Notes under the pieces: model-generated
What the model was told of the DNA's origin: nothing
What the model saw: only the letters and a program-made list of their open reading frames with translations
Databases searched by the model: none
Shown: in pieces, positions 1 to 64,000 of the stretch
How positions within the stretch are numbered: the first letter of the stretch is position 1
How the letters are laid out: each line of letters begins with the position of its first letter
Made by a program: the position numbers and the translations under genes
Assembly (NCBI RefSeq): GCF_026210795.1
Contig: NC_089432.1
Span: 5,270,001 to 5,334,000 of the forward strand
Direction of reading: 5' to 3'
Source of the DNA: Rhizophagus irregularis
Lineage: Eukaryota
DNA: 64,000 bases

Positions 1-3000
1 ATTATAAATACATTTTCTAATATCAATACGGATGTTAAGTCTTGCTTACAAGAACTTGCAAGTTGTCAAGTAGATAAATTGTCGATTTTCAAAACTGAAG
101 CTCAACTTTCAAATCGGGTAAGTTAAAGCAATGATTTAATAAGTTAATACATGCTTTCTTAGGTAACTTATTATAACTCCATATTTATAGGTAAAACACT
201 TCTGGTCAGAATCAACCGATCAAATGTTAATTCTTCAATGTGATTTAACTACCGTTAATACTGGATGTATTAAACTAGCCAAATTCATTATTGAACAATT
301 TCGAAATGAATATATATCAAAGAGAGATCAAATGGAACGGGAAATGCCTACGAAACATGCATGTATCATTCTTCATATTCATCGAGATCAAGAATCCACT
401 TTTACATCTTTTAATTTCATGTGCGGTTGGAAACAAATGACTATTGAAACATTATCAGGAAGTGACGTTCCTACATCAGGTCTCCTAGATGAATCGTTAA
501 CTCGTATTGTTAATTCAACTTATCCATTCGAAAAAATTTTACAACAAGAACTCTTATGGTGTTTATCGTGTATGAAATATCCATCGAACGACGAGTCAAT
601 CAATTATATAAAGTAAGCGATATTATTTATTTGTATGATATTTAATAATTATATTTATTAAGAATTTTTTTGCATTAAATTATTTTTTAGGACATTAAAC
701 GAAAAAATTCTAAAACATCCAAATTTTATTGAATGTTTGAAAAAAAGAGTCCTTGTATGGGTTGAAGAGAATTCTACAAGTGACTGGCAATATAAGATAG
801 CATCAAATAAACAAAATTTATATCCATACCCTTCATTTTCTGCAGCATTACAAGCTCACGTTAGAACACTTTTTAGAGAACCGATAGCGCGGATTTTATA
901 CGCTTTAGAAAGATTATCGGCGATAAAAACATTTTTCTATGTTTCTGATCAAACAAAGTCAAAAAAAGGAAACTATGAGAAATTACTTAAATTTTGGGAA
1001 CAAATTTTTATGGATAACAAAATTGTCAAAATTGATGATATACCAAATCCAAAACCTGATGGATATAATATGCCGGCGGAAAGTTTACTCGATCTTGAAT
1101 TTCCTTTTTCATTTTATTATATGAAACAAATTGATAGTTTTAAAAGACATTATGAAGAAGAAATATTGATATTACAAAGGGATGATGACAAAATTGACGA
1201 CGAAACTAATGAACTTTACGATTATGTGATTGAAGATCATTTAAAAGAGTTTAAAAATAATCTTCTTACGTCGATTCCGCAATTAAAAAATTCACCTCTT
1301 GAATGGGAATGGGCTTCCGAATTATATTTTAAAGATTTTGTAACCGTTATTGTGTCAAAAGATGGAGAGACAAAGAATAAAAAAATGTTAACAATAATTT
1401 TAAGATTACTCATCGGTACCGATAAAGTGCGTCAACCAATTTTCCTTCACTCATATTGGTGGAGGAATGCTAACGAAGTTTTAGCTCTATTACAATTAGC
1501 TCAAATGTCTCCCATAATAATTAAAAATATTGAAATTCAAGGAAATGCTATTATTAGAGGAAGTTTGGAAAAATATCTAGTTAAAGAAGTGACAAAACTA
1601 ATGTTACAGCGAATTTGTGGAAATTTTGAAGTCGCAGAAAATGCTCATTTGATCGATAAATGGCAGCATGATGTTACAAAAGTATTATCTCTCGTTAATA
1701 AAATAACTAGAGCAAAGAATTTACCAGATCTTCAATTGTTACGTATTGTAAACGATCTAGTTGCAGCAAAGACCATTCCTTTAGATAGCATTAAAGAAAT
1801 TGTTCAACTTGGATTAAGTTTAGACGAGCAAGAAGTTCTTTCCGAAGAATTTATCAACACCGTATTTGATAAGCTGGATAAACTAGAACAAAATGAGAAA
1901 AATATAATTCCAAAAAGAACATTTATCATGAGATGCCTTGCATTGATTCCTATCAAATCAGATACTCTACTAAGTTTTTATAAAAAATTATTCTCGAATG
2001 AACCTTTTCCATTAATGGGTGCAATCATTGAAAGGATATTTATTAAAGAAGACGTAGAAAATGAGGGCATTTTCTTTACGATACTTACAGATTTCGAAGA
2101 AGCTGTAAGACAATCTGCTCGGTTAAATCTTATTAATAAATGTTTAGGAGATTTGGATACAAACATGGCTACTTTATGTTGTGATACCATTGAACAAAGC
2201 TTCTTCATGAATGAGAAATTGGAAAATTTCGCGGCTTTTTTTGGACCGGCTCTTGAAGCTTTATATAAACAAGGAAGACCACCGTTACAAAAAATAGTTT
2301 CTATTGCATTCCTTAAAGAATTCGTTCGTCGATTCTGGGATAGTTTTCTTCCGAAAGATAAAAATAATCCCCTTGTATTTGACAGAGCAGATGAAAACAA
2401 TTTTAATAATGAAATAATTAATCAAATCAATAATATTTTGACTTTTTCTCATCCTTTGATTCATTCACTTAAAATTTATTTTTTAAGAGATTTATGTCGG
2501 AGAGGTTTTTCAATTGATGACATTAAAAGATTTTGTGAAGCTCAAAAAAATTTTTTACCGTGGCTTAGGACTTTCAACTGGGAAGATATTAATGAAAATC
2601 GGTTATCTTTTAATCCATATTGTAATATGCCCGAATATAATGAAACAGAAAACAGCTTTATGGCCTTCTATAGTGTAGGAAATAAGGCACCTTTCCAAAC
2701 ATATATCCAAGGAGTAAAGCAGAATATGACTATAACAGCAAAATTATCTTTCATGGGACTCTTATTTGTACGTCTTCATGCTTTAAGAGCTTCAAGAGAA
2801 TGGCGACATTCAGAAGTGCAATCGGCTGATTTCTTGACTAAAGAACTTACCGGAATAAACTTATCGAATTCATTTAAAACAATTGCAACAAATATCTTAT
2901 CGAATAAGCAACCTTTACTTCAAATTGTCAATCCAGAGATTAATAATACCGATTTGTTTATAAAATCTGTTATCTCACATATTTTCGCATTCCATGCATT

Positions 3001-5670
3001 GGTTGAACCGAATTCATCTCAACTTGCAATGTATCTACACAATCTACAAAATTGTCAGAATATGTTTATTTTAACGTGTATGTCCGACGTGGTATCAATG
3101 GTGTTAAATGCAATTCCTGAAGTCAAGACGAGATATGCCTGCAAATGCGGATGTATATATATAGTTGGAGAATGTGGCAATGTTGTTCAAACTGGTAAAT
3201 GTCCAAATTGTGGAAGTACAATTGGTGGAGCGAATTATAATAAACCAGAAGCTGGGAATACTAGACTTGATGCTGGTCCGGTTCACCAAATAGCAGTAAA
3301 TGATCAATCAGGGTATATTGGAGAAACAGTTAATCAAGATCTGTATCATTCCGTCAGATCTCTTCCTCCTACATCGTATCGTATGCTACATTTAATTATT
3401 CATGTTCTTATTGGAGCGTCTGCACCTCAACCTGCCCTTGCCTTTCTTCAAAAAAATAATAAAGTCGCTTTAGATTCTGAAAAATATTGTATGGATCATA
3501 TTCAAAATGACTGGGACATTCTCAAGAAACTTCTTAATTGTTCAGATGCGGTATGTTTAAAATTTTTTTTTTTTTCTGTTGTTATACCTGTCCAATTAGT
3601 AAAATGAATAAAATTATTAACCAAAAAAATATCTATGATTTAACTAGAATTTGGCGTTAGCGTTCCATTCACTAATTTCTTTAATGATGGAAAAACCTTT
3701 GCCGAATCAGCAAATAAATACATCTGCTGAACGCACGAATTGGGAAACAATGTTCCATAATAATTATATTGCACCACTAACTAAAAATATAAACGAGACA
3801 GCAACCAATTATCGTATGAAATTAGACGAAGCTCTAACTAAAAATAAAAAAGGTAACTTAATTGAATGTGAAATTAATCAGACTTTGGTTATGGATAAAC
3901 AATATCGAAGTGAGAATTTACCAAATTTATGGAGAACGATTGGAATAATTAATTTCGATAGTTTTCGTGCTTATTATATGAGTGATTTGACAAGGAGAAA
4001 CGACGACCATCCATTTCTCTCTGTATTTTTCAAACATTCTAAACAAATAGAATTACTCAAACATCTTTTACCTATCGTAAAATTTGTTCAAATTTTGAAT
4101 GCCAAACTTGGATATCAATTAACAAGGCAAACGGCAAAAGATATGAATTTCAGACAATTTATAGAAAAGGAATCCAATGATGGTAGAAATGAAGAAATTT
4201 TCAATAATTTGAATACCGCTTTTAATGATTTTAAACTTGGTTGGAATACAGTAATACCTTTCGTAAATCGATATCAATGTCATGAACTTCCCAATGAAAA
4301 ACCAGTCATGGGTTATAGTCTTCCAGTTATTTTTGGTTTAGTGGAACCGAAAGATGCAGGAATTTTCTTATGCGCTATTTTAGATTATTTGGTTGACTTG
4401 CAAAACCAGTTCTTACAAGAAGTTATAGTAATTCCACCTGGAACTTGTAAATCTCTCAAGTTTTTAGATGAAATCACATTTGATATCGAACTAGCAATTT
4501 CGAAAACAGAACCAGTTATACCCAATGGATATTGCTTTCAATCTCTACGTCTTGATCATGTTCGTTCTGGAAATATTATAAATTTTGTTTGGGATGATGA
4601 GATTCTTGCATATAGTCAAAGAAATTTAGCAATTGCAAGAGGAGAAGATATTGTGTATGATTTGACAAAAATTGAAGCGGAATTGGCAAATATTCTAGTT
4701 TTCGAGAAAGTTTATATAGAAACTCTACCAGATTCCCAATTATATCTTGAAACTTTCCCGTATCACATGGAGCTATTTCAAGGATGTATGAGAAGAATTC
4801 TTAGTGATATTAAGAATCAAATAACCCAAGAGCCAATCCCGATCGAAAAAATGAATCCATTAGGTTTTTCTATAAATTCCCGTTTAGAATACGCTTCAAA
4901 ATCGACTATAGATAACTCGTCAGAAATTTTGTCATCATTGGAAATACTTCTATGTTTCGTCAAGCGTACAGCAGTTGGAGATGGAGACAGACCCATTAAG
5001 GATTTTGTCTTACAATGGATGAAACTATCATCATTGTATGAACATAGAGAATTCTCTAAAATTTTAGATATTGATTTAAGACTTAAACACTTGGTGTCCT
5101 TATATGAGCTCGTCGAAGAACAAGTTGCCGATGTTAAAATTAAATATATTCACGAAAAATATCAGGAAAAACTTTCAACGGATATGGAGGCGGCAATAAT
5201 GGAATCTTTAGGTTTTAAGCAGCAAACTACAACGAAAAAAGTTATACCAGCAGAGGCATTCGCTTTAGCTTTAAAACGATTCATGCTACGATTCTTAACT
5301 TTAGAAAGTCAAAAGGAAACGGATTCATTAAGCATTTATTTACAAGATGGTTCATTAAATTTTTGGCCTTCAACAGTTCCAGAGGAACTTATTGATGAAT
5401 TGTTTCCAGAAAATTTATTTGTAGCTAATACATATGATGCTTATAAATTCACAGTGAAAAAGATTGAGGTAAGAAAATTTATAATATATATTTTTATATA
5501 TTTAAATAATATTAATCTAAAAAAAAATTTCTAATTACTTAAATGAAAAAACATGTATATGTCGCTAAAAATAGAATCAATGATTTAACAAATCTAAATC
5601 AAACGGAACCTACCGCCAGTAGAATGCTTCAAGAAAATCAAGAAAGGGCCGACAAAAATTTGATATGTAG
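1..5670 (+). CDS. RNF213: RNF213/mysterin-like giant AAA+/E3 ligase, copy A (3' part; 5' end upstream of window; multi-exon; last exon appears damaged)
   Basis: ORFs 224-616, 737-3607 and 3651-5534 are near-identical to exons of copies B and C and are separated by GT-AG introns. RZ-finger-like motif YACKCGCIYIVGECG..CPNCGSTIGG at about 3131-3241. Terminal-exon homolog at about 5543-5670. Confidence 0.85.
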
Positions 5671-12716: not shown

Positions 12717-15700
12717 CTAGGGGTTAGATAAATAAACGGGGGGCCAACTCATAGGTTACACAGACTGATCAATAATAACCAGAACTGTCGCCATATGTAA
12801 TTTTATAAGTAACCTTATTAAAATATGATCGTACCCCATGTTTAAGATGAAAAATCAATTGATAATCATTATAATCCATGAAAAAATAATAATTGATCGG
12901 TAATAAAGAAACGCGAAACTATCTGAAAATATAATTTTTTGTCAAAGTTTCATGTTTATTTACTTTAAAAAACTTGATCGGCGGTTTAATACATCTAAAA
13001 TACATAGAAAATTTCGCTACAACTTGAAAATGGTAGGCATTAAAGGTTAGAAAAGCACAACTTTTATATTTTTTAAATAATATTAACATTTTTTATTAAA
13101 AAGTTTCAAAAAAAACGCGCAATTAATATAAACGAGAATAGTATTGATTTGCCAATACCAAAGCAGCAAAAAAAAGCAGAAGCATTACAAGAACTTGTAC
13201 ATACTAAGCCTAACCTTAAAGGAAAAATGGTATATTTTTTTCCAACATTAGATAAATATTTTGAAGGTGTGCTTATGTATGAAATAAAGGATAAGAAAGC
13301 ATATGTATATAGCGTCAAAGATAATCGCAAATTTGACACATTTTCCAAATGGATAGATTATTTGGGAAACCGAGGATATTTTAAAGGACGTAGGTCTGCT
13401 ACAGCAACCATTTTTTTGGAAGCAAATCCTACAAGTCCGTCAATTGCATCTATTTTATCTACATCAAATTCATTATATTGGAAAACATCATTGTTAATAA
13501 ACACTACAGATATTCTTTCATCAATTCAAGAAAAAGTTAAACCGGGAGGAGAGTTTTCTGGAACTGCAATACGAAAAATTAGTGAAGGTCTTGAACTTCA
13601 TTTTTTCAAAGAAGAAAAATCAGAAAAAAAGCTATTGATTCTAACTAAGAGTGGTTTATATAGATATGAAGTTTATATATTTGATCAAATAGTAAAAGAA
13701 AAATATCTTCCTTTTCCAACCAAAGAAATGAAAAGAACTCTTGATGAAATAATTAATTTTATTAGATATGTTTTTTCTGTTAGTATTTGTTATGGACAAA
13801 GTACTGCTGGTAATTAATTATTATTTTTTATTTTTTATTTATTTATATACGTAAATTTTATTTGATAATTTTTATTCAAAGGTTTTGAACAAGTAACACA
13901 TATTCGGGGTACTCAACTAGTTAGCAATAATAAAGATCATACTCCTTTTGCTTTAATGGAACGGATTGGTCAACCTGATGAGGTATATAGAAGAATAGAT
14001 TGTATACTTGTAATAACAGAAAAAAATATATGCAAAAATTGTGCAAAATTACGAAAAACTTTACAAAGAATTCAACAAAGAATTTTGTCTGGAACAAACT
14101 CAATAAAAGTAACACATGCATCAAAAGAAACTCTTATAAAAAAGGTTAGCCAACAGAGAAAGATTATTAAAGAACAAAATAATATAATTATTGATTTAAA
14201 AGATCATTTAAAAGAAAAAATTGAAAGGGAAGAAGAAGAAGCATCAGGTGAAATTGCAAATATTGTTCATACTGTTACTAAAGGTATTATTAACAAAGAT
14301 ATAGATATTTCTGCTTTTCATCCTATTTTTCAAGAACTTATTCGTATTCAAACTGAAAAACCAAATGGAACAAGATATCATCCAATGTAAGGTTAATTAA
14401 GATGATATTAAATATATATCTTATATTTTTAATTTTTTAGGTTTTTACGTTGGGCTATATCTGTATATAGTAGATCAGGTCATGCAGCTTATAATGCAAT
14501 GAAAACAATTATGCGTTTACCATCAATTTCAACACTTAAAAGTTATATTAACGAAAGTGAACAAAAATCAGGCTGGCAAGATAAAATTGCTAATCAAATA
14601 TTGGCTAATTTGACAATAAATAAAATTTGGGGATATGGAAGAGTGGGATTTTTTTCTCATGATTCTTTTAAAATTCAAAAAGGTAAAAATTATTATTATT
14701 TTTAAATTTTTTCAATAATTTATATTTAATTATTTAATTTGATTGTAAAACATCTAAAAATAGGTCTTCTTTGGAGTCAACGTAAAAATTGTTATGTTGG
14801 TTATTTGGATTTTGAAAATGAAATGCAAGAGTATGAGATGTTTGCTATGCAATGTAAACAAGAAATAGAATCAATATCAATAGAAGATAATTCTACATCA
14901 AGTAATAAACAAAAATTTGGACTTGCAACCCAAGTTCATCAAATTGTTTGGCATTCAATAACACATAATTTTGCATTTCCCATATCTTATTATGGTATTA
15001 ATAATATATCAGTACATAGTTTAAATACATTACTTTTTAATCTTGCAGCAAAATTAGAGTGTATAGGTATATATACATGTGGATCAATTTGTGATGGAGC
15101 AGGAGAAAATAGAATTCATATTAAAAGTTTTGATTGGTATGCATCAAAATGGACTTGTGGTGATATTGTAGAAGTTAATTTTAATAAAGATAAAACATCT
15201 TTTTATGCAGCAAAAATTATAAATAGTAATTTTGAAAAAACAAAATTTACTGTATGTCAACTTGATTGTAATAATCCTAAAAATATTGAAATTGAACGAA
15301 ATTTTATTCGTCCACCAATGCCTTCAAAATTGAAATGGAATGTCAATGAAATATGCGAATTTAGAAATCCAGATGATAATAAATGGTACTTAGGAAAAAT
15401 TATTGAGTTTGATCCAGTTGAAACAACATTATCTGTAGAAATTATAGAAGGAATATATGCAAAAAAGGGATGGAAAGTTTTTAGTTATCATATTAGTAAG
15501 TTTCTTAGACCTGTTTATAATAATCAAGAAATTTTATTAAATTATAAAACAATCAATCCTATTACAAGAGAAGAGTGGTTTTTTATTAGTGATCCAACAC
15601 ATGTTTTTAAAAAACTTAGAAACAACATATCAAAAAGTCATACAGGTGAAAAAAATGCAAGAGAAATAATGTTTAATAAAAAGGAAATTAGTTGGAAACA

Positions 15701-47417: not shown

Positions 47418-50400
47418 ATGGAACAAGAAGTAAATATAAGAAATGAGGATGATACCGTATCCAATAATGATGAAGAAGAGTCATTAATAGATTCTTCTTT
47501 ACAAGTTCCACGTTCCGGTGTAGAAAAAAATTTATTTGCAAATAAAGTAAGAGATATGATGAACAATGGATATTCCTTTGGTAATGATAAAATAGAAATA
47601 GTAGATGAGTCGATTGACACAATTCATAATAATAATGTACGTAATTCTGATATCGATGAACATAATGATACCTCTAATTCCGAAGATGATGATACCAGCA
47701 ACTCTCAGGTCAAGAATTATGATTATCATGAAGATATCATTCCATCTACATCAGGTCACAATCGTATTGATAAGGAAAAGGAATTTGAATCTAATTATAG
47801 AGAACAAAAGGATGAATTTACTCGTCGTCCAAAAAATAAAGATAGTGATGATGATTCAGCAAATGAAGAGATCAAGATGCCAATTTCAAAATCTCGCTAC
47901 GCTGTGAGAAATCGACGAGAGACGTCAGATGATGCCAATGGCAATGACGATAACGATTATGATGACAATATTAGCGACTCTCAGGTCAAGAATTATGATT
48001 ATCGTGAAGATGTCATTCCATCTACATCAGGACACAATCGTATTGATAAGAAAAAGAAATTTGAATCTAATTATAGAGAACAAAAGAATGAATTTACTCG
48101 TCGTCCAAATTATCAAGATAGTCGTGATGATTCAAATCCTCGTTATGTTGTGAAAAATAGAAAGAAATTTGAAATGTCAGATGATGTCAATGACAATGTC
48201 GATAACGATTATGATGACAATATCGGCGATAATCGGGTCAAGGGCGATGATTATTATGAAGATGTCATTCCATCTTCATCAGGACATAATCGTATTGATA
48301 AGAAAAAGGAATTTGAATCTAATTATAGAAAACAAAAGGATGAATTTACTCGCCGTCAAAAAAATCAAGACGGTAGTGATGATTCAACAGATGAAAAGAT
48401 TAAGAAGCAAATTTCAAAATCTCGTTACGCTGTGGAAAACCGAGAGATGTCAGATGATGAAAATGAAAACGATAATGATGATGAAGAGCCTGAGTTTTAT
48501 GGAGAACAAATGGATGAAACCACTCGATATCCAAAACATAAAAATGGCCAAAATTTATCTATACATGCCGGTAATCAAAAGAAATTAGACAATACAAGTG
48601 ACTCCTCTCAAGATGAAAATGATAATTATGAAGAACAAATAGATGAAACTACTCGATATCCAAAAAATAAAAACAATCAAAGTCTATCTATACATGGCGG
48701 TAACCAAAAAAAATTAGATAACACGAGTGACTCCCAGGACGAGAATGATGATTATGAAGAACAAGCGGATGAAACTAATAGTTATCCATATAATAAAAAT
48801 GGCCAAAAACTATCTACGCATGACAGTAACCGAAAGAAATTAGACAACATAAGCGATTCATCACAGGATGAGAATGATGATTATGAAGAACAAATGGATG
48901 AAACTACTGAATATCCAAATAATAAAAATAGTCAAAATTTGCCTATACACGGAGGTAACCGAAGAAAATTAGGCAATATAAGTGACTCCTCGCAGGATGA
49001 GAATGATGATTATGAAGAACAAATGGATGAAACTACTGAATATCCAAAAGATAAAAACAATCAAAATCTGTCTATGCATAGACACGGAGGTAACCGAAGA
49101 AAATTAGGCAATATAAGTGACTCCTCGCAGGATGAGAATGATGATTATGAAGAACAAATAGATGAAACTACTAGATATCCAAAAGATAAAAACAATCAAA
49201 ATCTGTCTATGCATAGAGGTATCCAAAAGAAATTAGATAACACGAGCGACCCCTCCCAGGGCGAGAATGATGATTATGAAGAACAAGTGGATGAAACTAA
49301 TAAATATCCGTATAATAAAAATGGTCAAAATCTATCTACGCATGACAGTAACCGAAAGAAATTAGATAACATGAACGATTCCTCACAGGATGAGAATGAT
49401 GATTATGAAGGTGATTATGAAGAACAAACGGATGAAACTACTGAATATCCAAATAATAAAAATAGCCAAAATTTGCCTATACATGGAGGTGACCGAAGAA
49501 AATTAGGCAATATAATCAATATAAGTGACTCGCAGGATGAGAATGATGATTATGAAGAACAAATAGATGAAACTGCTAGATATCCAAAAGATAAAAACAA
49601 TCAAACTCTGTCTATGCATGGAGGTAACCAAAAGAAGTTAGATAACATGAGTTACTCCTCCAAAGATGAGAATGATGAATATAAAGATAGTGACTTTTTA
49701 CCTTCAGGTCATGTTAATAAAAATAATCAAAATCTATTTATTCAAGGCGATAATCGAAGGAAATTAGATGATAACAATGTTAACGATTCCCAAAATAGTC
49801 AAAATTTAACTAGAGATAATGAAGATAATTATAGCGGCAATAGTCAAGAAAAAAATCGGAAACCAAATAATAGTAGTTCCATATGGCCTAACTTGACTAC
49901 CATGCCTGGCATTATTAATAGATTGATGCCTGGTAGTAGCAAAGACGAGGATGAGATCAAAGTTATTTTCCATGTTCATTTTCCGGAAGGTATTGATAAA
50001 GTTGGAAACCCCGTAGTTCTTGGCAATGTAAAAGAATTAGGATCTTGGAAAAGTCCTATTATAAAGCTTAGTCCGCAAAAAAATCGAACATATTGGCGAT
50101 CCAGTCCAGTTATTATATCATCATCTTCTGTAAGAGGCGAAATTCAATATAAATATGCTATTCATGTACCCGCCAAAACTTTATACGGTCTTGGAAGATT
50201 TGGGAGAGAAGAAATTATATTTGAAGGAAATGGTGATAGAGATAATCGCATGTTGAATATTGAGAGAAATAATCAATTTGATATTTTCATAAACAATAAT
50301 CAATTACCTCGTTTATATCCTAATACTATACGTGATTTTGCTTTTGTGGATTACATTTATAATTCTATAAATGCTGACAACCTTAAAGCTAAAGTTATGG

Positions 50401-53400
50401 AATACCAACACTTATTAATTCTTCACAATGATTATACAATCCGTGCGTCAAATCTCGATTTCATTGCCGATCGCATTGATGTAAAAAACAAAGACAAACG
50501 ACTTTTCTTATGTTTTCTCTTAGGACATTATAATACTTCAAGAAGACGAGGTTCATTTTATGAATTACAGAATAAATTTCAATCTGGTTTGTTGCTTGAT
50601 GCACTTGAAGGCTATAAACAAGATACTTTACCTTCAAACACTAAAAACCAGATGTCTAGTGCCATCATAACTTTAGTTCAGCATAATGCTTTTCAGATGC
50701 AATTTAATTGGCTCATTATTTTTACAATTGCATCTGAAGTTGACCCTAATTTTTCTTTCATTGACCATTTAAAATCTTTAAAATATTCTAATGACAAATT
50801 AGTAAAATTCATTCAAGGAATTGAAATTATCAAATCTTATATTGATGGCACTGAACCTGAATTCTATATTAAGATTGCGAAGGTAAATTTTAATATAATT
50901 ATTGTGTCAATTTTACTTACAATAAATCTTTTTTTTTAAAAAAAAATATTTCTTTTATAGTGGTTAATTCAATTATGTCATAATATGGATCACCTTTTTG
51001 TACTTTGGAATGATATTCTCTCACATAGCAGCGAACTTGACAAAAGTATTTTTAAGCACTTTATTGAACAAATTCGAGAAAGTAGCTCTCATGATGATGC
51101 TGCTGCTTTAGAAAATCATTTTAAAAGACTCCCAAGAGATTATCGACAAGATGTATCTGAAGTTTTCCGGTCTCGTACATTATTTTTACTTGAAGTTTCG
51201 AACAGAGATTGGACAAAGGAAAATATCACTGCTATTAAAAACCTTCTTCATGAGGATAACCTAAACTGGGGCAGAGAGGAAGTTATTCGATTATTAGATT
51301 TAACATCTCGATCAAATACCTTGGAATTATTAAATATATTTCCTGAAATTTTAGATAATTGGTTTCGTAATAATTTTTCCGACACTAAAGAGAACAAGAT
51401 ACCGACAACCTGTGTGGCTTGGTTTAAAAATCTTTTAATCAAACTTGACACGGGTACGAGCACAAAAAATAGAAAAGAAAATAACATTGTGTTTTCGGTA
51501 TTTTTACATTTAGAACACATATACCCTTTGCTTGGTCATCGAAAAAATGTTTGGCAAAGCTTGACAACCAGTGCTATCGAAAGAGTTAGAGTATGTTCGG
51601 AATCTCAAATATTTGGCGCTACAAAATTTATAGTACAGATAAAAGAACAAGATATTAGAACGTTATTTTTAGATATGATAAAAGAAATGCTGAATAAGGC
51701 CGTACGACAAATTGATGATCAACTAATAAATAAAATTTATACAATATGCAATTGCAAAGGAAAGAATTTGGAAGTCCCAAACAAGTAAGTTCTTTAAAAA
51801 ATTTGATCTTTTTGTTAAATACAATTACTTATATATAATATATATTTATTTATTTTTTTATCAATTTATAATTATCAGGGTGAGCGAAGAAATTTTGTAT
51901 CATATCATTACTAGGTTACAAAACCAATCATCCGCATCTGATCCTTCGGAATATCATTTAAATATTCTAAGAGCAAGTCAATTTTGGAGTATTATATTAC
52001 GTTCTACTGGAAATGTTACGAAACTTCATTCAAATCCATTTGTTCAGCGTGTTAAAATGTCAATCAATAAACTTGGTGAATTACTACGTGAAAAGACAAT
52101 TGATATGCAATTGTTACAACAACTCTTAGACTTTTCTGATGAAAGATTATTTCAACATTTTGATGCAGCTGTTTCTGAAAAGAAAGCCATAGTTGATGTG
52201 ATTGTATCTCAAGATGAAATTGAAGAAATTAGAAAACTTTGTGGCAACTTTCAACTTCAGCTTGATATACTTTTCAAGTTTTATAACGAATTTTGTCCAA
52301 TTTCTCAAGTAACAGATGTGGATGATTACATTCAAGACGTAAAGAAACATATGGCAAGCTCAAATAAAGTGATGTTGAGAGAAGTGTTATCGCAAGATTA
52401 TTGGGCGTTCCATGAAAAAACTTTGTTCATTTCAAGACGTTGCTACAAATATATTCAATCTCGATTTTTTCGAAATATCTTTGAACGTTATGTCCAGGAA
52501 GATACTGCTGCAACAAAAGTAGAGTACATAGCGCAAAGATTAATGCCAGAAGTTTTTAAAAAATATGATACATACTGTGAACAATTTAAAGAATGGGAAA
52601 AGCTCAAATGTTCAGATGCATCTTTATTCTGGAACAATGTTACAGATGTAAATGCGGAGCTTGATTTAATGGAGGTTTATAAAGAACATAAAAATCAAAA
52701 ATTAATACAAACCCTTGACCATCTTTCAAAAATTTCTCTCTGGACTAAACGACTTGTGGAATTAGAGAAAGTTGTAAACCTTTTTAAAATACTACGTAGT
52801 GAGAATGATTGGCTAAATAAATCACTTGAATTTTTAAAAGACAATTCTAAGAAACTTAGCCAAGTTAATAGTTTTTTTAATTGTCTTAATAATAATATTT
52901 CCAATGCTAATCAAGAATGTTGGAAGTTGATAAAAGAGCTATCAAATGCTGATGGTTTTATAAGTTTTTTAGAAGAAATTGTCGAACACGATATTAAAAA
53001 TTTGATAAATGGTGTGGATGACCATTCAGATGAAAGATTGGTTCAAGAAGATACAGTTTCATCACTTATTCAAGTCAAGCAAATTTTATTGCCATTTATG
53101 AATAAGAATAAAAGAGATGATATTGCTAGTTTTTTAGCTTCACTATCAAATATTATAAAAAAGAATCCTACTTTAGGGGAGAAGATTGCATTATGTAACA
53201 GTTGTCATATGGCGTTACGAAATATATATAAGAACATTTCAGATCGTGGCGAAGTAACTAAGGAAAAAATCAAAAATGCCGTACTTAATGGGAGTTATAC
53301 TTTTGGACGTGATGAAAAAGAAGACAAGTGTTTAGTTTTGTTAAAATATACTTCTAGAACTTCTAAATCAGAGATGTTAATGACATATAATATGAATGAA

Positions 53401-56400
53401 ATCTTGGATTTACGTGGACGAGCCCTTTTAATTGCAAAACCTAAGATAAGCGTAAACGATAAAGATGAGGAAATTTCAAAAAATATTTTGAATGAATTTA
53501 CTGTCCAAGTCGATATTGCGCAAGAAATAATCAAAGTAGTATCCGTATTAATGCAATTGGGACATTTTGATTACAGAAAGTTTGAATATGAATTAATGGG
53601 AACAGATAGAATGAAAGATTATTTAAAATTTTTAAAGAATGAGCTCAAAAACTGGTAAGTAATTATTTATACTCCCTTCATTCATTTTTCACAAGAAAGA
53701 TTTTAACGAACTACGTTTCTACCAATTCTAGGCAAAATATAATAGATCGCGCACAAGAACAGTGTTATTATTTAACATTCTTCCCTGCTCGTCATATTTT
53801 GGCATTCCATGATTATTTCACATCAGAAAAATTAGATGAAGAAAATGAAGAAGAATGTAAAACATTGGTTAGATTTGTGAACAACAAAGCTAAATTACCA
53901 TCTCGTAAAGATATCCAAGGAATTTCACGTGGATCTAAAGATTATCGTAAGATTCTATGCGAGATTGGAAATGAATTAGAAAAAATTTTTAAAAAAATTC
54001 CAAAACAATCACGCGGTGGACTTAAAGCTGTTGGAGCTACCGGACAACGCGCAACGTTGGATATAGTTAAAAAGGGTAAATTATTTATTGCAGCTTGCGT
54101 TGACAAAACAAGAGTTCCAAACATTATTATGTCATTATATGTCAATAATGGAAATTATCCAGAACCGTGGCAACTCTTAATATGTACTACTTCAACTACG
54201 ATGGAGGAATTAACTATCTTCATAAAAAGAAGTTTCTTTGCATCAAAAAATGGATATGAAAATCACTTATTTTGTATTGCAAATTTAGAATTATTAGACT
54301 TTGAATTACAATATGATTTAGTTAATCAAATTAGATCAATGCGAGATCAAAAAGATTTTCTTCTAGCGCTTATTTGTTACAGAGAAAATGGAATTCATCA
54401 TCACATTTTAGATCAATTTTCTTCAGATGTCGTGACTGATGGATTAAACAATGAAGCTATGAGGGAAATTTATAGGGAATTGTGTCAGAATGTTATTCGT
54501 GTTACTTCCGACTTATCGGGACAAGGCAAAACTGAATGGATTAAAGAGGATAGTTTCAATAAAAAGAGATTCCCACGTAGCTTTTTAATAAGCGATGATA
54601 TGGAATTTGGCAGACTTGTACGTCAATTTAAAGAATATAAACTCCGAACTGCAGAAAGTTTACATATCAATATAGTATCATCTAACTACCCCGGAGACGT
54701 CAATATGTTTTTATTTGAATTATTAACTTTGGGTATAGTCTCTACTAATGTGGATATAGCTTGCCTACCTCTTTCAGAAACGCCCACGTATATATTTATT
54801 GAAATAGCTTCAACTACTGAACAGTATTTACTTAATTCTCTTCCTATGACAGGATATTTATTGTCCAAACATTTAACTTGGGATATTAAAAGTTTGAAGG
54901 CCTCTCAAGATATTACAAGTCAAATTCAGATTACTTGTAATTATTTGAATTTATTAGATCTTAATAAGATAGATACAAAAGAAATCCTTTTCCGGACGGA
55001 TGATGCAATTAAACCGTTACCAGTGGAACGTTGTCAAAATCTTATTGAGAAATATTTCTTTAACGAAAACAACAAAGACATTTCCTCATTTAGATTTGTT
55101 GAAATATTTGTTAATGTTCTAGCAGATCAATTAGTTCGATTTTCATCAAGTTTATTCTTTACAGTAGATAATCTGAGATTAATGGTAAAAGAAACTACTA
55201 ATATTAGAAAACTTATATTAAAAACATTAATGGATGGTTCAAAAGATTTTGCAACTAGATCTATCAAAACAAGAGAGGCACAGTTGGAATCTACAAATGC
55301 TGAAGATGAAAACGCTCGTCTTGGTACAATTGTTCAATGGGACGACTCAAATCATCTTTTAGTATTTTTCAATTCTCAAACTCCCGATACAATATCTGCC
55401 TTATATCGTGACAGAACTAAAGTTCACGAAAATGTTAAGACTTTATTAAAAAGTCAAGTAATTGGAGATATAACAAAATGGGAGTTAGATGATTATAATT
55501 CGATGTCTACAGATGCTCTATTTATGAAATTGGAATATTTAGCGCGAAAATCGACGGAAAAATTAAATATTCCTGAATACGCTTTATCTGGTGATAACCT
55601 AATAAAGATGGCCTTAATTCTTTTAAGAGCACGTGCGAATATCCCAGTTATAGTTTGTGGTGAAGCAGGCTGTGGCAAGGTGATTATATTTCGTTGTTAT
55701 TTATTTTCGTTATCACTTTTTTTTAAATATTTTACTTCAATATTATATCTCTTATAGACAAGTTTAATTGCCTACTTGGCTTTGATGGTTGAAGTTCAAT
55801 TCCAGTCTCTTAACCTTCATGCCGGAATTGATGAAAAAACTATTATGATGTTTATGAACGATTCTTTAGAGAAAGCAGAAAAAGGCGAGATTTGGCTATT
55901 CTTTGATGAGATCAATACTTGCAATTATATAGGTTTACTAGCTGATTTAATATCTCATCGAGTGCTTAATGGAAAACTAATACACCCAAATATTCGTTTG
56001 TTCTCCGCCTGTAATCCATACCGCCTTCGTATAAAATCCCAAAGTGAGGCTGGTTTAACAAATAGGGTTAAAAAATTTGAAGAACGAAGCAACCTTGTTT
56101 ATCAAGTCAAACCACTTCCTGATCAAATTTTAGATTATGTTTGGGACTATGGTATTTTAAAATCAAAAGATGAACGTAGATATATTCAAATTATGGTAGA
56201 AAAAGAACTGAAAAATTTAGCACATCCCGTATTTGCGGAACTTTTATTTGCTTCTCAAAATTTTATTCGAAAAGTTGAAGAACCATATAGTGTGAGTCTA
56301 CGTGATGTCAAGCGAGCTATAAGATTGGTGATATTTTTTTATAAATCTCTTCATAATCGTCCTGCTTACAGATATGGACATGTATATCCACCGCCTGGAA

Positions 56401-59400
56401 ATCCAACCATATTGACTAGGTCTTATGTTCTAGCACTTAGTCTTTGTTATCATTCTCGGTTATATGAACAAGATTTACGTAGACAATATCGCTTTGAAAT
56501 GGGACAAATATTACGCAATCATAATGCATTTGTAGGAGAAAATATGTTTTCTAAAATTATTCGTGAAGAACAAGAAGATTATATTAAGAGGATGCAATGT
56601 CCACCTAATACAGCATATAACGAAGCTTTATTAGAAAATGTTTTAGTTATGATCGTATGCATTTTGACAAAAATCCCTCTGTTCCTTATAGGAGCACCAG
56701 GCTCTTCAAAATCTTTAGCAATTCGTCTTATAAGCTCAAATTTACGTGGAGCCGATTCATATGATGAATATTTCAGAAATTTACCACAGATTTATTTAAT
56801 TCCACATCAAGGTTCTTCGTCTTCAACTTCTGATGGTATTATCAAAGTTTTTGATAAGGCGAATAGGTTTCAGGAAACAACTTCCACTCAATTTCCTGTT
56901 ATTAGTGTTGTTTTACTTGATGAAGGTAGTTTCATTTATATTTATTAAACTATCATGTTTTTATTTATTATTTATAATATTTTCTGTCTGTCATAATTTT
57001 TCTTTTTTTTGTGTCATCTTATACTAGTTGGCTTGGCTGAAACAAGTCCTTGCAATCCATTAAAAGTACTTCATTCTTTGCTTGAGCCAAGTTATCCAGC
57101 TACAGTGCCAACTGTTTCAGTGATAGGAATATCTAATTGGCGCTTAGATAACAGTAAAAGTAGTCGTGCACTACTTGTTCAGAGGTACATCTAAATAACA
57201 ATCATTGTATAATTTACAATTTTACGTACACTTATAATAATTTTCTTACGTTTTTTGCAGACCACAATTTGATTTAGATGATTTAGTTGATACAGCTGAG
57301 CGTTTATTAAATAAAAGAGTCATGGTTTTTCAAAGAGGGGCTTTAAAACCTTTAGCTGAAGCATATTCCAATTATGAAAAATATGGACAATCTTTGCCTA
57401 ATTTCCACGGTCTTCGTGATTATTATGCGCTGGTTAAGCGACTTTCATTATATGAAATGACTCCAAAGAATATTCAAATGGCACTAGCCCGTAATTTTGG
57501 GGGGACAGAAAACCACGTTAAATTATGTAAAAAGTATTTTGGAAATGTTCTAAAGATGTTTAATAATCATAAGTCATGGTTATATAAACAAATACCAATT
57601 GAACAATTAATCGCTTCAAATTTAGATGATTCTGATGCACGTCACTTAATGGTTATCGGTAAAAGTGATTCAATTGTGAATTTGTTGACTTATCAGTTAA
57701 GAATGAGAGACTTGGATCCTGTTGTTATTTTAGGATCTCAATTTCCCGATGATCGTGATGATTATTATTATAGCGTTTTGAGGAGAATTATGGTAATAAT
57801 CTATAAGAAATATTCTTTCTTTATCCATATATATATAAAAACATAATTTTATAATTTTAGATGTGCGTTGAAGCAGGCAGACCATTGATTCTAACAGATT
57901 TGGAAATGATTTATGGTAATTCTTTTATTTGTTATCTTAAGTATAATAATTATATTAAATAATTTTTTATAATTTAATAGGGAGTCTTTATGATTTATGG
58001 AATCAAAATTATATCGTTGTGGGAAGTAAAGAAAATGTCAAATACTTTACGAGGGTTGCACTTGGAGCATATGCAAATCCTATGCTGTAAGTAAACCTAT
58101 TAAATTTATTGTATATATATTTTTTATTTTATTTTGAAGTATTTTAAATAATAATGAATTTTAGTTACGTTTCGCCGAATTTTAAATGTATTCTTGTCAT
58201 GGATGAGAAAAATGTGGCTTCAGCTGATCCTCCACTTCTTAATCGGTTTGAAAAGCAAAAAATGTCAATTAATGACACTCTTAATAATAAACAAAAGTTA
58301 CTTGTTGAAAATTTAGGTGATTGGACAAGAAAAATGTCGACTCTGATTGGAGTTACTCAATTACGTAATAAATTCACCCAGAAAAATCTATTCATTGGAT
58401 TTGATAAAGATGAAACCTTACAAAGTCTAATTATTGACATCACAAAGAATAATCCAGAAGCAGATAATGATGAAATTTTAGAAAAATGCAAGGAATGTTT
58501 AATCGCAACAGCATCTTCTGACGGAGTTGTAAGAGCCGAACAATCAGCTTTAGAAAAAGATGAAGTTGATCGATGGAAACAGGTTTATTTCCGCAAACAG
58601 CATCACAATAGTCTTTATGATTATTTTTCTAATCAAGAAGATGCGTTATCAGATCCTAATGGACATTTAGTGATTATAAATACATTTTCTAATATCAATA
58701 CGGATGTTAAGTCTTGTTTACAAGAACTTGCAAGTTGTCAAGTAGATAAATTGTCGATTTTCAAAACTGAAGCTCAACTTTCAAATCGGGTAAGTTAAAG
58801 CAACGATTTAATAAGTTAATACATGCTTTCTTAGGTAACTTATTATAACTCCATACTTATAGGTAAAACATTTCTGGTCAGAATCAACCGATCAAATGTT
58901 AATTATCCAATGTGATTTAACTACCGTTAATACTGGATGTATTAAACTAGCCAAATTCATTATTGAACAATTTCGAAATGAATATATATCAAAGAGAGAT
59001 CAAATGGAGCGGGATATGCCTACGAAGCATGCATGTATCATTCTTCATATTCATCGAGATCAGGAATCCACTTTTACATCTTTTAATTTCATGTGCGGTT
59101 GGAAACAAATGACTATTGAAACATTATCAGGAAGTGGCGTTCCTACATCAGGTCTCCTAGATGGATCTTTAACTCGTATTGTTAATTCTACTTATCCATT
59201 CGAGAAAATTTTACAACAAGAACTCTTATGGTGTTTATCATGTATGAAATATCCATCGAACGACAAGTCAATCAATCATATAAAGTAAGTGACGTATAAA
59301 TAGTAATTATACTATATTTTAACATATATGTGTTGTTATGTTGTTATGTTGTTATTTAAATATTTTTTGAATAACCTTTTTTTAGGATATTGAACGAAAA

Positions 59401-62400
59401 AATTCTAAAGTATCCAAGTTTTATTAAATGTTTGAAAAAAAGAACTTTTGAATGGATTGAGGAAAAATCTACAAGTAACTGGCAATATAAAATCGCATCA
59501 AATAAACAAGATTTGTACCCATATCCTTCATTTTCTGCAGCACTACAGGCTCACGTTAGAATACTGCTTAGGAAACCGATAACTCAAATTTTATGTGCCT
59601 TAGAAAGATTATCGGCAATAAAAACATTTTTCTATGTTTCGGATCAAACGAAGTCAAAAAAAGGGAACTATGAAAAGTTACTTAAATTTTGGAAACAAAT
59701 TTATATGGATAACAAAATTATCAAAATTGATGATATACCAAATCCAAAACCTGATGGATATAATATGCTGGCAGGAAGTTTACTCGATCTTGAATTTCCT
59801 TTTTCATTTTATTATATGAAACAAATTGATAGTTTTAAAAGACATTATGAAGAAGAAATAACAATATTACAAAAGGATAATGGCAAAATTGATGCCAAAA
59901 CCAATGAACTTTGCGATTATGTGATTGAGGATCATTTAAAAGATTTCAAAAATAAGCTTTTTATGTCAATTCCGCAATTAAAAAATTCACCTCTTGAATG
60001 GGAATGGGCTTCCGAATTATATTTTAATGATTTTGTAACCGTTATTGTGTCAAAAGATGGTGAGACAAAGAATAAAAAAATGTTAACAATAATTTTAAGA
60101 TTACTCATCGGTACCGATAAAGTGCGTCAACCAATTTTCCTTCACTCATATTGGTGGAGGAATGCTAACGAAGTTTTAGCTCTATTACAATTAGCTCAAA
60201 TGTCTCCCATAATAATTAAAAATATTGAAATTCAAGGAAATGCTATTATTAGAGGAAGTTTAGAAAAATATCTAGTTAAAGAAGTGACAAAACTAATGTT
60301 ACAGCGTATTTGTGGAAATTTTGAAGGCGCAGAAAATGCTCATTTGATCGATAAATGGCAGCATGATGTTACAAAAGTATTATATCTCGTTAATAAAATA
60401 ATTAGAGCAAAGAATTTACCAGATCTTCAGTTGTTACGTATTGTAAACGATCTAGTTGCAGCAAAGACCATTCCTTTAGATAGCATTAAAGAAATTGTTC
60501 AACTTGGATTAAGTTTAGACGAGCAAGAAGTTCTCTCCGAGAAATTTATCAACACTGTATTTGATAAGCTAGATAAACTAGAACAAAATGAAAAAAATAT
60601 AATTCCAAAAAGATCATTTATCATGAGATGCCTTGCATTGATTCCTATCGAATCAGATGTTCTACTAAGTTTTTATAAAAAATTATTCTCGAATGAACCT
60701 TTTCCATTAATGGGCGCAATCATTGAAAGGATATTTATTAAAGAAGACGTAGAAAATGAGGACATATTCTTTACGATACTTACAGATTTCGAAGAAGCTG
60801 TAAGACAATCTTCTCGGTTAAATCTTATTAATAAATGTTTAGGAGATTTAAATACAAACATGGCTACTTTATGCTGTGATACCATTGAACAAAGCTTCTT
60901 CATGAATGAGAAATTGGAAAATTTAGCAGCTTTTTTTGGACCAGCTCTCGAAATTTTATATAAACAAAGAAGGCCATCATTACAAAAAATAACTTCTATT
61001 GCGTTGCTTAAAGAATTCGTTCGCCGATTCTGGGATAGCTTTCTTCAGAAGAATAAAAATAGTCCTATTGTATATAACAAAGCGGGAGGATACAATTTTA
61101 ATAGCAACGAATTAATTAATCAGATTAACAATACTATGACTTTATCTTATCCTTTGATTCATTCTCTTAAAATTTACTTTTTAAGAGATTTACGTCGAAG
61201 AGGGTTTTCGATTGATGATATTAGACGATTTTGCGAGGCTCAAAAGAATATTTTGCCGTGGTTTAGAACTCTCGATTGGGGGGATGTCAAAGGAAATAGA
61301 TTGCCTTTTAATCCATATTGTAATATACCCGAATATAATGAAGCAGAAGACAGTTTTATGACCTTCTATAATTTAGGAAATAAAGCACCTTTCCAAACAT
61401 TTGTACAAAAAATGAAACAAAATATGACCTCAACAGCAAAATTATCTTTAATGGGACTCTTATTTGTACGTCTTCATGCTTTAAGGGCTTCAAGAGAATG
61501 GCGACATTCAGATGTGCATTCAGCTGATTTCTTAACCAAAGAACTTGCTGGAATGAACTTATCGAATTCATTTAAAAGGATTGCAACAAATATCTTGTCG
61601 AATAACCAACCTTTACTTCGAATTTACAATTCAAGAATTGATAATACCGAGTTGATTTTAAAATCTGTTATTGCACATATTATCGCTTATCATGCGTCGC
61701 TTGAACCGAATTCATCTCCACTTGCAATGTATTTACACAATCTACAAAATTGTCAGAACTCGTTTATATTAACATGTTTTTGTGACCAGCAATCTGCGGA
61801 TTTTAATTTAATGTTGAACGCCATGAAGGGTTCAAGTTTTTATTCCTGTATTTGCGGTTACAGATACTTCGTTGGAGAATGTGGCAGACCTACGGCTACT
61901 GGTAGTTGCCCGAATTGTGGAAAAACGATCGGTGGAATTAAACATCAACCAGTAGCTGGAAACAATAGAACTCAAATTCAACCTCTTGCGATAAATTATA
62001 AAGCAGGATACATTGGTGAACTAGTCAATCAAAATATGAATGTTATCGTCAGAAGTCTACGACCTGTAGCATATCGTATTTTGCATTTAATTGTTCATGC
62101 TCTTATTGGAGCATCTGAACCTCCAACTGCCCTTGCTTTCCTTCGAAAAAATAATCAAACTGCTACTGATTCTGAAACATATTGTATTAACCATATTCGA
62201 AATGATTGGGAAATTCTGAAGAAACTTCTTTATTGCTCAGATGATGTATATATCTTTTTTTATTATTATTATTATTTTCTTTATAATCTTATTTAATAAA
62301 ATAGCTAACTAAAACAAAATTTTATTATCTTAATCAGAATTTGGCGTTAATATTCCATTCTCTAATTTCCTTAATGATGGAAAGACCTCCCATTCCGAAT

Positions 62401-64000
62401 CAAACGACATATCCTGAACGCATAAACTGGGAGACATCATTTCAAGATAATTATGTTACACCTCTTACTGAGAATATAACGAAAACGGCAACTAATTATC
62501 GTATGAAGCTAAGCGAAGCTCTAACCAAAAATAAAAAAAATAACTTAATTGAATGTGAAATTAATCAGACTTTAGTTATGGATAAGCAATATCGAAATGA
62601 AACTTTACCAAATTTATGGAGAACAATTGGAACAACCAATTTTGATAGTTTCCACGCTTATTATATGAGTAACTTGACAAGAAACAACGATCATCCATTT
62701 CTCTCTGTCTTTTTCAAATATTCAAAGCAGTTAGAATTACTTAAACATCTTTTACCTATTGTAAAATTTGCTCAACTTCTGAATAACAAACTTGGATATC
62801 AATTAACCAGACAAACGGCAAAAGATATGAAATTCATACAATTTATAAAAGAGGAATCCAATGATGGTAGAAATAAAGAAATTTTCAATAATTTGAATAC
62901 CGCTTTTAATGATTTTAAACTTGGTTGGAATACAGTAATACCTTTCGTAAATCGATATCAATGTCATGAACTTCCCAATGAAAAACCAGTCATAGGTTAT
63001 AATCTTCCAGTTATTTATGGTTTAGTGGAACCGAAAGATGCAGGAATTTTCTTATGCGCTATTTTAGATTATTTAATTGACTTGCAAAACCAGTTCTTAC
63101 AAGAAGTTATAGTAATTTCACCTGGAACTTGTAAATCTCTCAAGTTTTTAGATGAAATTACATTTGATATCGAACTAGCAATTTCGAAAACAGAACCAGT
63201 TATACCCAATGGATATTGCCTTCAATCTCTACGCCTTGATCATGTTCGTTCAGGAAATATTATAAATTTTGTTTGGGATGATGAGATTCTTACATATAGT
63301 CAAAGAAATTTAGCAATTGCAAGAGGAGAAGATATTGTGTATGATTTGACAAAAATTGAAGCGGAATTGGCAAACATTTTAGTTTTCGAGAAAGTTTATA
63401 TAGAAACTCTACCAGATTCACAACTATATCTAGAATGTTACCCGTATCACATGGAATTATTTCAAGGATATATGAGAATTCTTAGTGATATTAAGAATCA
63501 AATAACCCAAGAGCCAATCCCGATCGAAAAAATGAATTCATTAGGCTTTTCTGAAAATTCCGGTTTAGAATATGCTTCAAAATCGACTATAGATAACTCA
63601 TCAGAAATTTTGTCATCATTGGAAATACTTCTATGTTTCGTCAAGCGTACAGCAGTTGGAAATGGCGACAGATCTATTAAAGATTTTGTTTTACAATGGA
63701 TGAAACTATCATCATTGTATGAACATAGAGAATTCTCTAAAATTTTAGATATTGATTTAAGACTTAAACACTTGGTGTCATTATATGAACTCGTCGAAGA
63801 ACAAGTTGCCGATATTAAAATTAAATATATTCATGAAAAATATCAGGAAAAACTTTCAACGGATATGGAGGCGGCAATAATGGAATCTTTAGGTTTTGAG
63901 CAGCAAACGACAACGAAAAAAGTTATACAAGCAGAAACATTCGCATTAGCTTTAAAACGATTTATGTTACGATTTTTAACTTTAGAGGATCAAAAAGAAA
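47418..64000 (+). CDS. RNF213: RNF213/mysterin-like giant AAA+ ATPase / RZ-finger E3 ligase, copy C (3' end beyond window)
   Basis: Same exon series as copy B. CBM20-like domain at about 49956-50262, Walker motifs intact, RZ finger at 61838-61945. The penultimate exon from about 62338 is open to the window end and is absent from the ORF track. Confidence 0.92.
47695..48450 (+). repeat. Coding repeat type 2, three copies of an about 80-90-aa unit (copy C)
   Basis: SQVKNYDY.ED.IPSTSGHNRIDK.KEFESNYREQKDEFTRR.. occurs three times; copy B has only degenerate traces. Confidence 0.85.
48500..49680 (+). repeat. Coding tandem repeat, about 43-aa unit, 9 copies (copy C)
   Basis: EEQ.DET..YP..KN.QNL..HGGN..KL.N.SDSSQDENDDY repeated nine times with small in-frame indels. 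Confidence 0.9.

What the first reader, a model, noticed from the sequence alone, without database searches (positions are those of the whole stretch)
1..64000. Tandem array of giant RING-less RNF213-like genes: candidate cell-autonomous immune locus in a fungus
Seen: at least three head-to-tail genes (complete copy B about 5,000 aa) with repeat-CBM20-stalk-AAA+-RZ architecture and no C3HC4 RING visible in the E3 exon. Established: mammalian RNF213 is a single-copy pathogen sensor that ubiquitylates bacterial LPS through its RZ finger independently of its RING, and it also associates with lipid droplets. AM fungi are coenocytic, lipid-rich and can carry endobacteria and viruses. Inference: an amplified, diversifying cluster suggests a ubiquitin-based surveillance system against intracellular microbes, organised like an NLR cluster.
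Basis: partly seen in the sequence, partly recalled or inferred. Interest (0 to 1): 0.85.

Follow-up and report, generated by a model that had tools for sequence, protein, structure and literature searches.

The report
Amplified, shuffling fungal RNF213 ligase family
A mycorrhizal fungus carries three neighbouring giant genes related to the human antimicrobial ubiquitin ligase RNF213; they lack its RING finger, belong to a large family whose members swap parts, and likely tag intracellular microbes, a role that is untested.

Summary
Largely confirmed. Three same-strand RNF213-family genes lie in a Rhizophagus-type genome: A (3' third), B (complete, 14 exons, 5,001 aa, identical to database protein P0060) and C (5,200 aa read); none has an internal stop. 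CBM20 fold, AAA3/4 Walker motifs and RZ finger with catalytic Cys are present; no RING. Corrections: only B and C are adjacent (A and B are 21 kb apart, with a transposon and a BTB-TLDc gene between); RING absence is shared with protist homologues, so it is not a fungal oddity. New here: the family is amplified across Glomeromycota (10 locus tags in R. clarus, 9 in G. cerebriforme, lower bounds); paralogues are mosaics; the RZ segment is the most divergent part between A and B/C (49-52% identity, Tyr versus His at the general base); 25 Rhizophagus relatives lack the whole E3 core, with tails shuffled onto different motors. C-type spliced transcripts exist. Against immunity: dN/dS about 0.33 overall, no positive selection shown, no substrate or infection data. 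The scan earlier found RING-less RNF213 relatives in Jimgerdemannia and protists on other DNA.

The parts
1..5468 (+). Copy A, 3' third (late AAA6/hinge, E3, RZ, CTD): exons 1-117, 191-612, 691-3550, 3648-5468; last short exon uncertain
   Evidence: 1,740 aa without stop; splice sites mapped from B
3128..3262 (+). RZ finger of A: CxC..CxxC, catalytic Cys kept, Tyr in place of the general-base His
   Evidence: PF20173 E 1.4e-12; alignment
12717..18285 (+). P-type DNA transposon between A and B: about 77-bp terminal inverted repeats, 7-bp target duplication ATAGTTT
   Evidence: PF21787 E 4.8e-10
18911..20404 (+). Unrelated BTB-BACK-TLDc gene between A and B
   Evidence: Pfam BTB E 4.8e-6, TLD E 3.6e-13
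23396..26600 (+). Upstream region of B, homologous to 43635-47428 upstream of C (part of the duplicated unit)
   Evidence: blastn 65-88% in blocks
26601..42657 (+). Copy B, complete gene, 14 exons, 5,001 aa
   Evidence: splice model; identical to P0060
26915..27937 (+). B N-terminal 129-bp (43-aa) tandem repeat, 8 copies, N/D/S/K-rich, probably disordered
   Evidence: no Pfam match
28269..28583 (+). CBM20-fold domain of B (aa about 557-661)
   Evidence: PF00686 E 1.1e-4, just under cut-off; model pLDDT 89, top 9 Foldseek rows are glucoamylases and the GPCPD1 CBM20
33951..35487 (+). AAA3/AAA4 active sites of B: Walker A K2377 and K2695, Walker B E2428 and E2766
   Evidence: human RNF213 E 2e-44; motifs
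37682..40535 (+). E3 exon of B (E3 back, shell, core); helical, no RING
   Evidence: model pLDDT 80; 8 of 8 Foldseek rows with E<=0.001 are RNF213; VIA Z 15.1, rmsd 20.3, 648 aligned to 9jwg
40137..40235 (+). RZ finger of B: C4220, C4222, C4240, C4243 (likely zinc), C4231 nucleophile, H4252 general base
   Evidence: PF20173 E 1.4e-17; alignment to mouse RZ
40625..42436 (+). End of E3 core and C-terminal domain (E2 dock in mammals)
   Evidence: profile match to RNF213 C-terminus E 1e-19, gappy; this exon alone gives no match
47418..64000 (+). Copy C, 13 exons in view, 5,200 aa without stop, cut by the window end
   Evidence: near-identical to P0059; C-type letters in RNA reads
47924..49687 (+). 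C N-terminal repeats: 252-bp x1.8 and 129-bp x9.1
61814..61969 (+). RZ finger of C, Cys/His type
   Evidence: PF20173 E 1.6e-18

Best explanation
These are three intact-reading members of an amplified, recombining family of RING-less RNF213-type giant proteins, predicted to be ATP-gated ubiquitin ligases that likely survey the fungal cytoplasm for foreign or damaged surfaces such as endobacteria or viral factories. Shown: domain order, homology to RNF213 along stalk, motor and E3 module, intact Walker motifs, RZ finger with catalytic Cys, no RING, amplification, mosaic paralogues, spliced C-type transcripts. Inferred from mammalian RNF213: ATP binding in the AAA core switches on the E3; E2~Ub docks on the CTD; ubiquitin passes to the RZ Cys and then to a lipid, glycan or protein, marking it for autophagy. 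Inferred from the variation: CBM20/stalk variants set what is recognised, RZ variants (His or Tyr base) set what is modified or how fast, and unequal crossing-over or gene conversion reshuffles these halves; the relatives without an E3 core would be decoys or regulators.
For: Homology: AAA exon E 2e-44 and RZ exon E 6e-13 to RNF213; profile E 1e-297; folds. Mammalian mechanism from passages of PMC11549300 and PMC12075652. Amplification: 113 of 113 named rows among the 120 listed (of 1,320 hits) are Glomeromycota; 10 RclHR1_ and 9 C1645_ locus tags over. Among 11 close paralogues the two most variable of 89 windows cover the RZ finger and its next loop; CBM20 is fifth. A versus B/C: RZ segment 49-52% identical with dS 0.9, against 89-93% and dS 0.1-0.2 in the flanks: an old cassette kept inside homogenised backbones. 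Mosaics: P0005 matches C then P0003. 25 E3-core-less proteins are one side of a branch on the CTD tree (SH-aLRT 100) but need 6 changes on the AAA tree, which rejects their monophyly (p-AU 3e-43). RNF213 expansion is reported in symbiotic bivalves (PMC9993606 passage). Immune-type genes respond to endobacteria in Gigaspora (PMC10197012 passage; RNF213 not mentioned there).
Against: dN/dS 0.31-0.35 over whole genes; CBM20 0.60 (CI 0.32-1.43) and B-C RZ 1.04 (CI 0.36-5.06) are not distinguishable from relaxed constraint. In 17 more distant Rhizophagus/Glomus paralogues the RZ windows (0.59, 0.54) are only slightly below the median 0.65. The second zinc ligand of mammals (His4509) is absent in all aligned fungal fingers (CxC instead), and A has Tyr for the general base, whose loss cuts mouse activity. 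The RZ part of the model has low confidence (pLDDT about 40-60). AM fungal genomes inflate many families and are transposon-rich (recalled, not checked; a transposon sits inside this array). P0008, the cleanest tail swap, is a singleton and could be a misassembly. Expression of A and B specifically is not shown. No substrate, localisation or infection data.
Confidence: 0.5

Rival explanations
1. Active RZ ligases with a housekeeping job (lipid droplet, glycogen or organelle quality control), multiplied by the general birth-and-death gene inflation of AM fungal genomes; the mosaicism is a by-product of tandem repeats.
For: Purifying selection overall. The CBM20 fold matches starch/glycogen-binding domains. 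RNF213 is linked to lipid droplets (abstract listing). A transposon and an unrelated gene lie in the array.
Against: Neutral inflation does not predict old RZ types (dS 0.9) kept inside homogenised genes, nor a ligase-less class present in three Rhizophagus species that mostly also lacks the AAA4 Walker B Glu (20 of 28, against 65 of 75 core-bearing forms keeping it).
Confidence: 0.3
2. Self/non-self recognition between nuclei or strains at hyphal fusion: diverged cassettes act like incompatibility alleles and the ligase marks incoming nuclei, organelles or selfish elements.
For: Deeply diverged RZ types among close paralogues and strain-variable mosaics resemble fungal incompatibility loci (recalled).
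Against: No known incompatibility domain in A, B or C; the variants are paralogues as much as alleles; no precedent for RNF213.
Confidence: 0.12
3. Mostly redundant copies drifting towards loss; only one or two per genome matter.
For: Many database relatives are partial or lack catalytic residues (RZ Cys in 71 of 87); A's last acceptor is altered.
Against: All three copies read open over 1,740-5,200 codons with dN/dS near 0.33; C-type spliced RNA.
Confidence: 0.08

Closest known systems
Mammalian RNF213 / mysterin (PDB 6TAX, 7OIK, 8S24, 9JWG)
   Same: CBM20 - stalk - dynein-like AAA+ core with two active sites - E3 module with RZ finger (catalytic Cys) - CTD; about 5,000 aa; variable CBM20/stalk.
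   Different: No RING (about 190 residues shorter across that span); RZ zinc site CxC..CxxC instead of CxxxH..CxxC; general base His or Tyr; repeat-rich N-terminus; many paralogues instead of one; a class without the E3 core.
RING-less RNF213-like proteins of Endogonales and protists (Jimgerdemannia P0041, Endogone P0147, Naegleria P0216, Andalucia P0254)
   Same: No RING motif; CxC-type RZ finger; Endogonales forms lie next to the Glomeromycota on the AAA tree.
   Different: No comparable radiation seen in my hits (copy numbers there not measured); no core-less clade among them.
Fungal and plant NLR gene clusters (recalled as an analogy)
   Same: Clustered, mosaic paralogues; exchange of sensor and effector halves; catalytically reduced members.
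   Different: No NACHT/NB-ARC or repeat sensor domain; output would be ubiquitin, not cell-death signalling; positive selection not shown here.
ZNFX1
   Same: Shares the RZ finger with Cys/His dyad (PMC12075652 passage).
   Different: RNA helicase scaffold; otherwise unrelated.

Membership tests
RNF213/mysterin family | Dynein-like AAA+ core homologous to RNF213 | tested here: met
   E 2e-44 for the AAA3/4 exon; profile E 1e-297 from stalk to AAA6; only RNF213 chains hit
RNF213/mysterin family | Walker A and B in AAA3 and AAA4 (human K2426, E2488, K2775, E2845) | tested here: met
   B K2377, E2428, K2695, E2766 and the same in C; A's part lies outside the window
RNF213/mysterin family | N-terminal CBM20 domain | tested here: met
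   Pfam just under cut-off; predicted fold matches CBM20 structures; sugar binding not tested
RNF213/mysterin family | RZ finger with catalytic Cys (human C4516) | tested here: met
   PF20173 above cut-off in A, B, C; Cys aligned
RNF213/mysterin family | RZ zinc ligands C-H-C-C as in mammals | tested here: inconclusive
   His4509 position is Tyr/Phe/Met/other; a new Cys (CxC) is conserved in 76 of 87 and likely replaces it; model too uncertain there
RNF213/mysterin family | General-base His (human H4537) | tested here: inconclusive
   His in B and C, Tyr in A; His 47, Tyr 33 of 87 aligned
RNF213/mysterin family | C-terminal domain homologous to the E2-docking CTD | tested here: met
   profile match to the chain end, E 1e-19, gappy; single-sequence search negative
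Vertebrate-type (RING-bearing) RNF213 | C3HC4 RING inserted in the E3 shell | tested here: not met
   No Pfam RING outside the RZ; no motif in 134 of 134 sequences; helical model; 898 vs 1,089 residues between anchors. Not filed as vertebrate-type
RNF213/mysterin family | ATP-dependent transthiolation and ubiquitylation of LPS or pathogen surfaces | not testable with these tools
   needs biochemistry
NLR-like immune gene cluster (analogy) | Clustering and recombination among paralogues | tested here: met
   adjacent locus tags RclHR1_05780008/9 and OCT59_017131/4
NLR-like immune gene cluster (analogy) | Positive or balancing selection on recognition surfaces | tested here: inconclusive
   only three coding sequences; dN/dS below or near 1; old RZ types suggest, but do not show, balancing selection

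The most novel reading that the evidence does not exclude
Arbuscular mycorrhizal fungi have turned the single RNF213 gene into a diversified receptor repertoire: ten or more giant ligases per genome that recombine CBM20/stalk sensors, motors and alternative tails (His-type RZ, Tyr-type RZ, or a ligase-less, hydrolysis-impaired decoy tail) to police endobacteria and viruses; a ubiquitin-based arm of fungal immunity, with the RING being a later animal add-on.
Probability: 0.35. Interest if true: 0.85.

Novelty: new variant of a known kind. Interest (0 to 1): 0.62.

Why it matters
A review of fungal immunity has no mention of RNF213 or ubiquitin (PMC10197012, term counts). If these genes mark intracellular microbes, AM fungi have an xenophagy-type defence that could decide which endobacteria they keep. 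Independently of that, nature supplies RING-less, Tyr-base and core-less RNF213 variants, which bear directly on open questions about human RNF213: what the RING is for, what the CBM20 binds and how ATP hydrolysis gates the ligase.

Tried and rejected
No genome is held, so paralogues were counted from database names only. A RING hidden in introns: rejected, introns are 67-105 nt. Weak Pfam rows (ARM_TANGO6, RnlA_DBD, bpMoxR, MerR_1, zf-RING_4) rejected as below cut-off or lying on known motifs. Residue-level alignment across the RING site failed: the E3 profile matched RNF213 only from the E3 core onward, so RING absence rests on motif scans, the model and length accounting. No vertebrate RNF213 sequence entered the session, so there is no tree with vertebrates. 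My regex class counts were faulty (greedy match) and were replaced by column counts. On the CTD tree the outgroup was not one side of a branch and long branches met, so rooting is unsure; only the split is used. Three 'no-core' rows (P0019, P0033, P0045) were left out of the clade tests as separate deletions or misclassified. No listed indexed holder is on record as RNA. A second read lay on copy C gave no result, so copy-level junction counts for C are missing. Positive selection: not shown. PMC5520026 not held; PMC11134847 passages did not cover these families. Atlas recognition score was low (1305), used only as a lead. Look-ups of earlier findings by place and by 'Rhizophagus' words were empty.
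Full report
Observation. The window (29% GC) holds three + strand copies of one giant gene, 88-92% identical in DNA. Copy B splices over 13 GT-AG introns to 5,001 aa with no internal stop, and this model is identical to database protein P0060. The same splice sites are present in C (5,200 aa, cut by the window end) and A (1,740 aa, cut by the window start), both without stops. B and C are 4.8 kb apart and share about 3 kb of upstream sequence. A and B are about 21 kb apart: homology to B's 3' flank stops at 5716 and resumes at 21822, and the 16 kb between holds a P-type transposon (12717-18285) and a BTB-BACK-TLDc gene. The closest named relatives are Rhizophagus irregularis proteins, so the source is that species or a near relative; no genome is held.

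What the protein is. The AAA3/4 exon matches human RNF213 at E 2e-44 and the E3 exon at E 6e-13, with no other significant PDB match; a 23-sequence profile matches at E 1e-297 from stalk to AAA6 and a 16-sequence E3 profile reaches the C-terminus, with large gaps; the CTD exon alone finds nothing. The N-terminal domain folds confidently (pLDDT 89) and its nine best structural rows are glucoamylases and a human CBM20. The E3 exon model (pLDDT 80) has RNF213 as all 8 Foldseek rows at E<=0.001 and as the only VIA row above Z 8 (Z 15.1, rmsd 20.3, 648 aligned). The four Walker residues needed in human RNF213 (PMC11549300, passages) are present in B and C. The RZ finger keeps the catalytic Cys in A, B and C; its zinc site reads CxC..CxxC rather than CxxxH..CxxC; the general-base His (activity drops when mutated: PMC12075652, passages; also bioRxiv 10.1101/2021.05.10.443411, passages) is His in B and C and Tyr in A. 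Over 87 aligned E3 cores out of 151 proteins examined, the catalytic column is Cys in 71 and the base column His in 47, Tyr in 33; 40 have four Cys plus Cys/His and 25 four Cys plus Cys/Tyr.

The RING. No RING is found by Pfam in the three E3 exons or by motif in 134 of 134 window and first-search proteins, nor in any library representative of 2,500 aa or more. The model is helical throughout the shell. Between two alignment anchors that bracket human H4014, B has 898 residues and human 1,089. I could not align the RING site residue by residue. RING-less relatives include Endogone, Naegleria, Andalucia and a starfish protein, while atlas clusters with a RING are chordate or mollusc (a lead only). 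RING absence is therefore likely the old state, and since mammalian pathogen ubiquitylation does not need the RING, it says little about function.

The family. A search with the AAA core gave 1,320 long proteins; of the 120 listed, 113 carry names and all 113 are Glomeromycota. Distinct locus tags over number 10 for one R. clarus annotation, 9 for Glomus cerebriforme, 6 for Diversispora epigaea and 5 for one Gigaspora rosea annotation; these are lower bounds, and some may be split models. Adjacent tags show other clusters. No Dikarya name appeared in the three searches, but lists were truncated or word-limited, so absence is not shown. The window's genes sit in a recent Rhizophagus subclade.

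How the copies vary. Pairwise dN/dS is 0.34 (B-C), 0.35 (B-A) and 0.31 (C-A) (Nei-Gojobori, no correction for the transition bias). By domain, the AAA core is 0.29, CBM20 0.60 (CI 0.32-1.43) and the B-C RZ segment 1.04 (CI 0.36-5.06): purifying selection overall, no proof of positive selection. The striking feature is patchiness. A differs from B and C in the RZ segment at 49-52% identity and dS about 0.9, against 89-93% and dS 0.1-0.2 on either side. Among 11 close paralogues the RZ windows are the two most variable of 89; among 17 more distant ones the CBM20/stalk is the most variable long region and the RZ is unremarkable. Database paralogues are mosaics of A-, C- and P0003-type segments.

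A ligase-less class. Of 103 Glomeromycota/Endogonales proteins on the AAA tree, 28 keep E3 shell and CTD but lack the roughly 400-aa E3 core with the RZ finger; three of these are separate deletions or misclassified and were dropped. The other 25, all Rhizophagus, are one side of a branch on the CTD tree, yet are scattered on the AAA tree, which rejects their monophyly (52 rows, p-AU 3e-43). P0055 (core-less) and P0009 (RZ-bearing) are about 90% identical through the motor and about 43% in the tail, and both clusters have members in several assemblies; P0070/P0008 is a sharper case but P0008 is a singleton. Only 8 of 28 core-less proteins keep the AAA4 Walker B Glu, against 65 of 75 core-bearing ones. 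None of this class lies in the window.

Expression. On B's region (28100-44000), two polyA runs and one probable RNA run of the same species label laid 1,743, 1,699 and 842 reads of about 11 million each; 39, 49 and 12 reads skip the predicted intron 35488-35566, absent from the DNA contigs. Of the 40 variant positions printed (of 771), 36 carry copy C's letter, so a C-type gene is transcribed and spliced in that strain. Expression of A or B themselves is not shown.

Mechanism and rivals. By homology these are ATP-gated transthiolating ligases. I favour intracellular surveillance (0.5) because old catalytic cassettes and a conserved ligase-less class are being shuffled onto variable sensor/motor halves, and because the one characterised relative is antimicrobial; RNF213 expansion was also noted in symbiotic bivalves (PMC9993606, passage). 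Housekeeping plus general gene inflation in AM fungi (the inflation is recalled, not checked) remains strong (0.3); allorecognition (0.12) and decay (0.08) are weaker.

Novelty. The proteins are in databases under automatic names such as 'RZ-type domain-containing protein'. Ten literature searches listed no paper on fungal RNF213; 'RNF213' with 'mycorrhiz' gave one review, seen as a listing only. Subscription papers and supplements were not covered. Earlier notes of this scan report RING-less relatives in Jimgerdemannia and protists, so that part is a repeat; amplification, mosaicism, His/Tyr RZ types and the core-less class were not in the notes returned. Verdict: a real new variant of a known kind, function untested; interest 0.62.

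Noticed in passing
window 12717-18285: P-type DNA transposon with near-perfect terminal inverted repeats (about 77 bp) and 7-bp target duplication; multi-exon transposase 13077-16462 and a second unassigned ORF region 16466-17895; flanked by an outer 25-bp inverted pair (12634-12658, 18361-18385), perhaps an older small element.
   Followed up: partly
window 18911-20404: BTB-BACK-TLDc gene; reading frames shift near 19862-19937 (intron or frameshift not resolved).
   Followed up: no
window 8300-10600: Long T-rich then A-rich low-complexity tracts with a 20-bp repeat array (10018-10490); origin unknown.
   Followed up: no
window 5469-5760: Copy A lacks B's acceptor for the last short exon; the close relative P0006 ends with a different tail matching an acceptor at 5709 that runs into the inserted DNA.
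   Followed up: partly
P0012, P0014, P0061, P0103: Protein kinase domains annotated in the same chain as RNF213-like parts in four AM fungal species; true fusions or merged gene models.
   Followed up: no
P0154 (Asterias rubens) and similar representatives: Starfish protein 48% identical to the fungal AAA3/4 (closer than human RNF213), with neither RING nor RZ motif: animals seem to have a second RNF213-like lineage.
   Followed up: partly
window 40360 and 35617 (loose ends): Many RNA reads from other paralogues align only partly, so several family members are transcribed.
   Followed up: no
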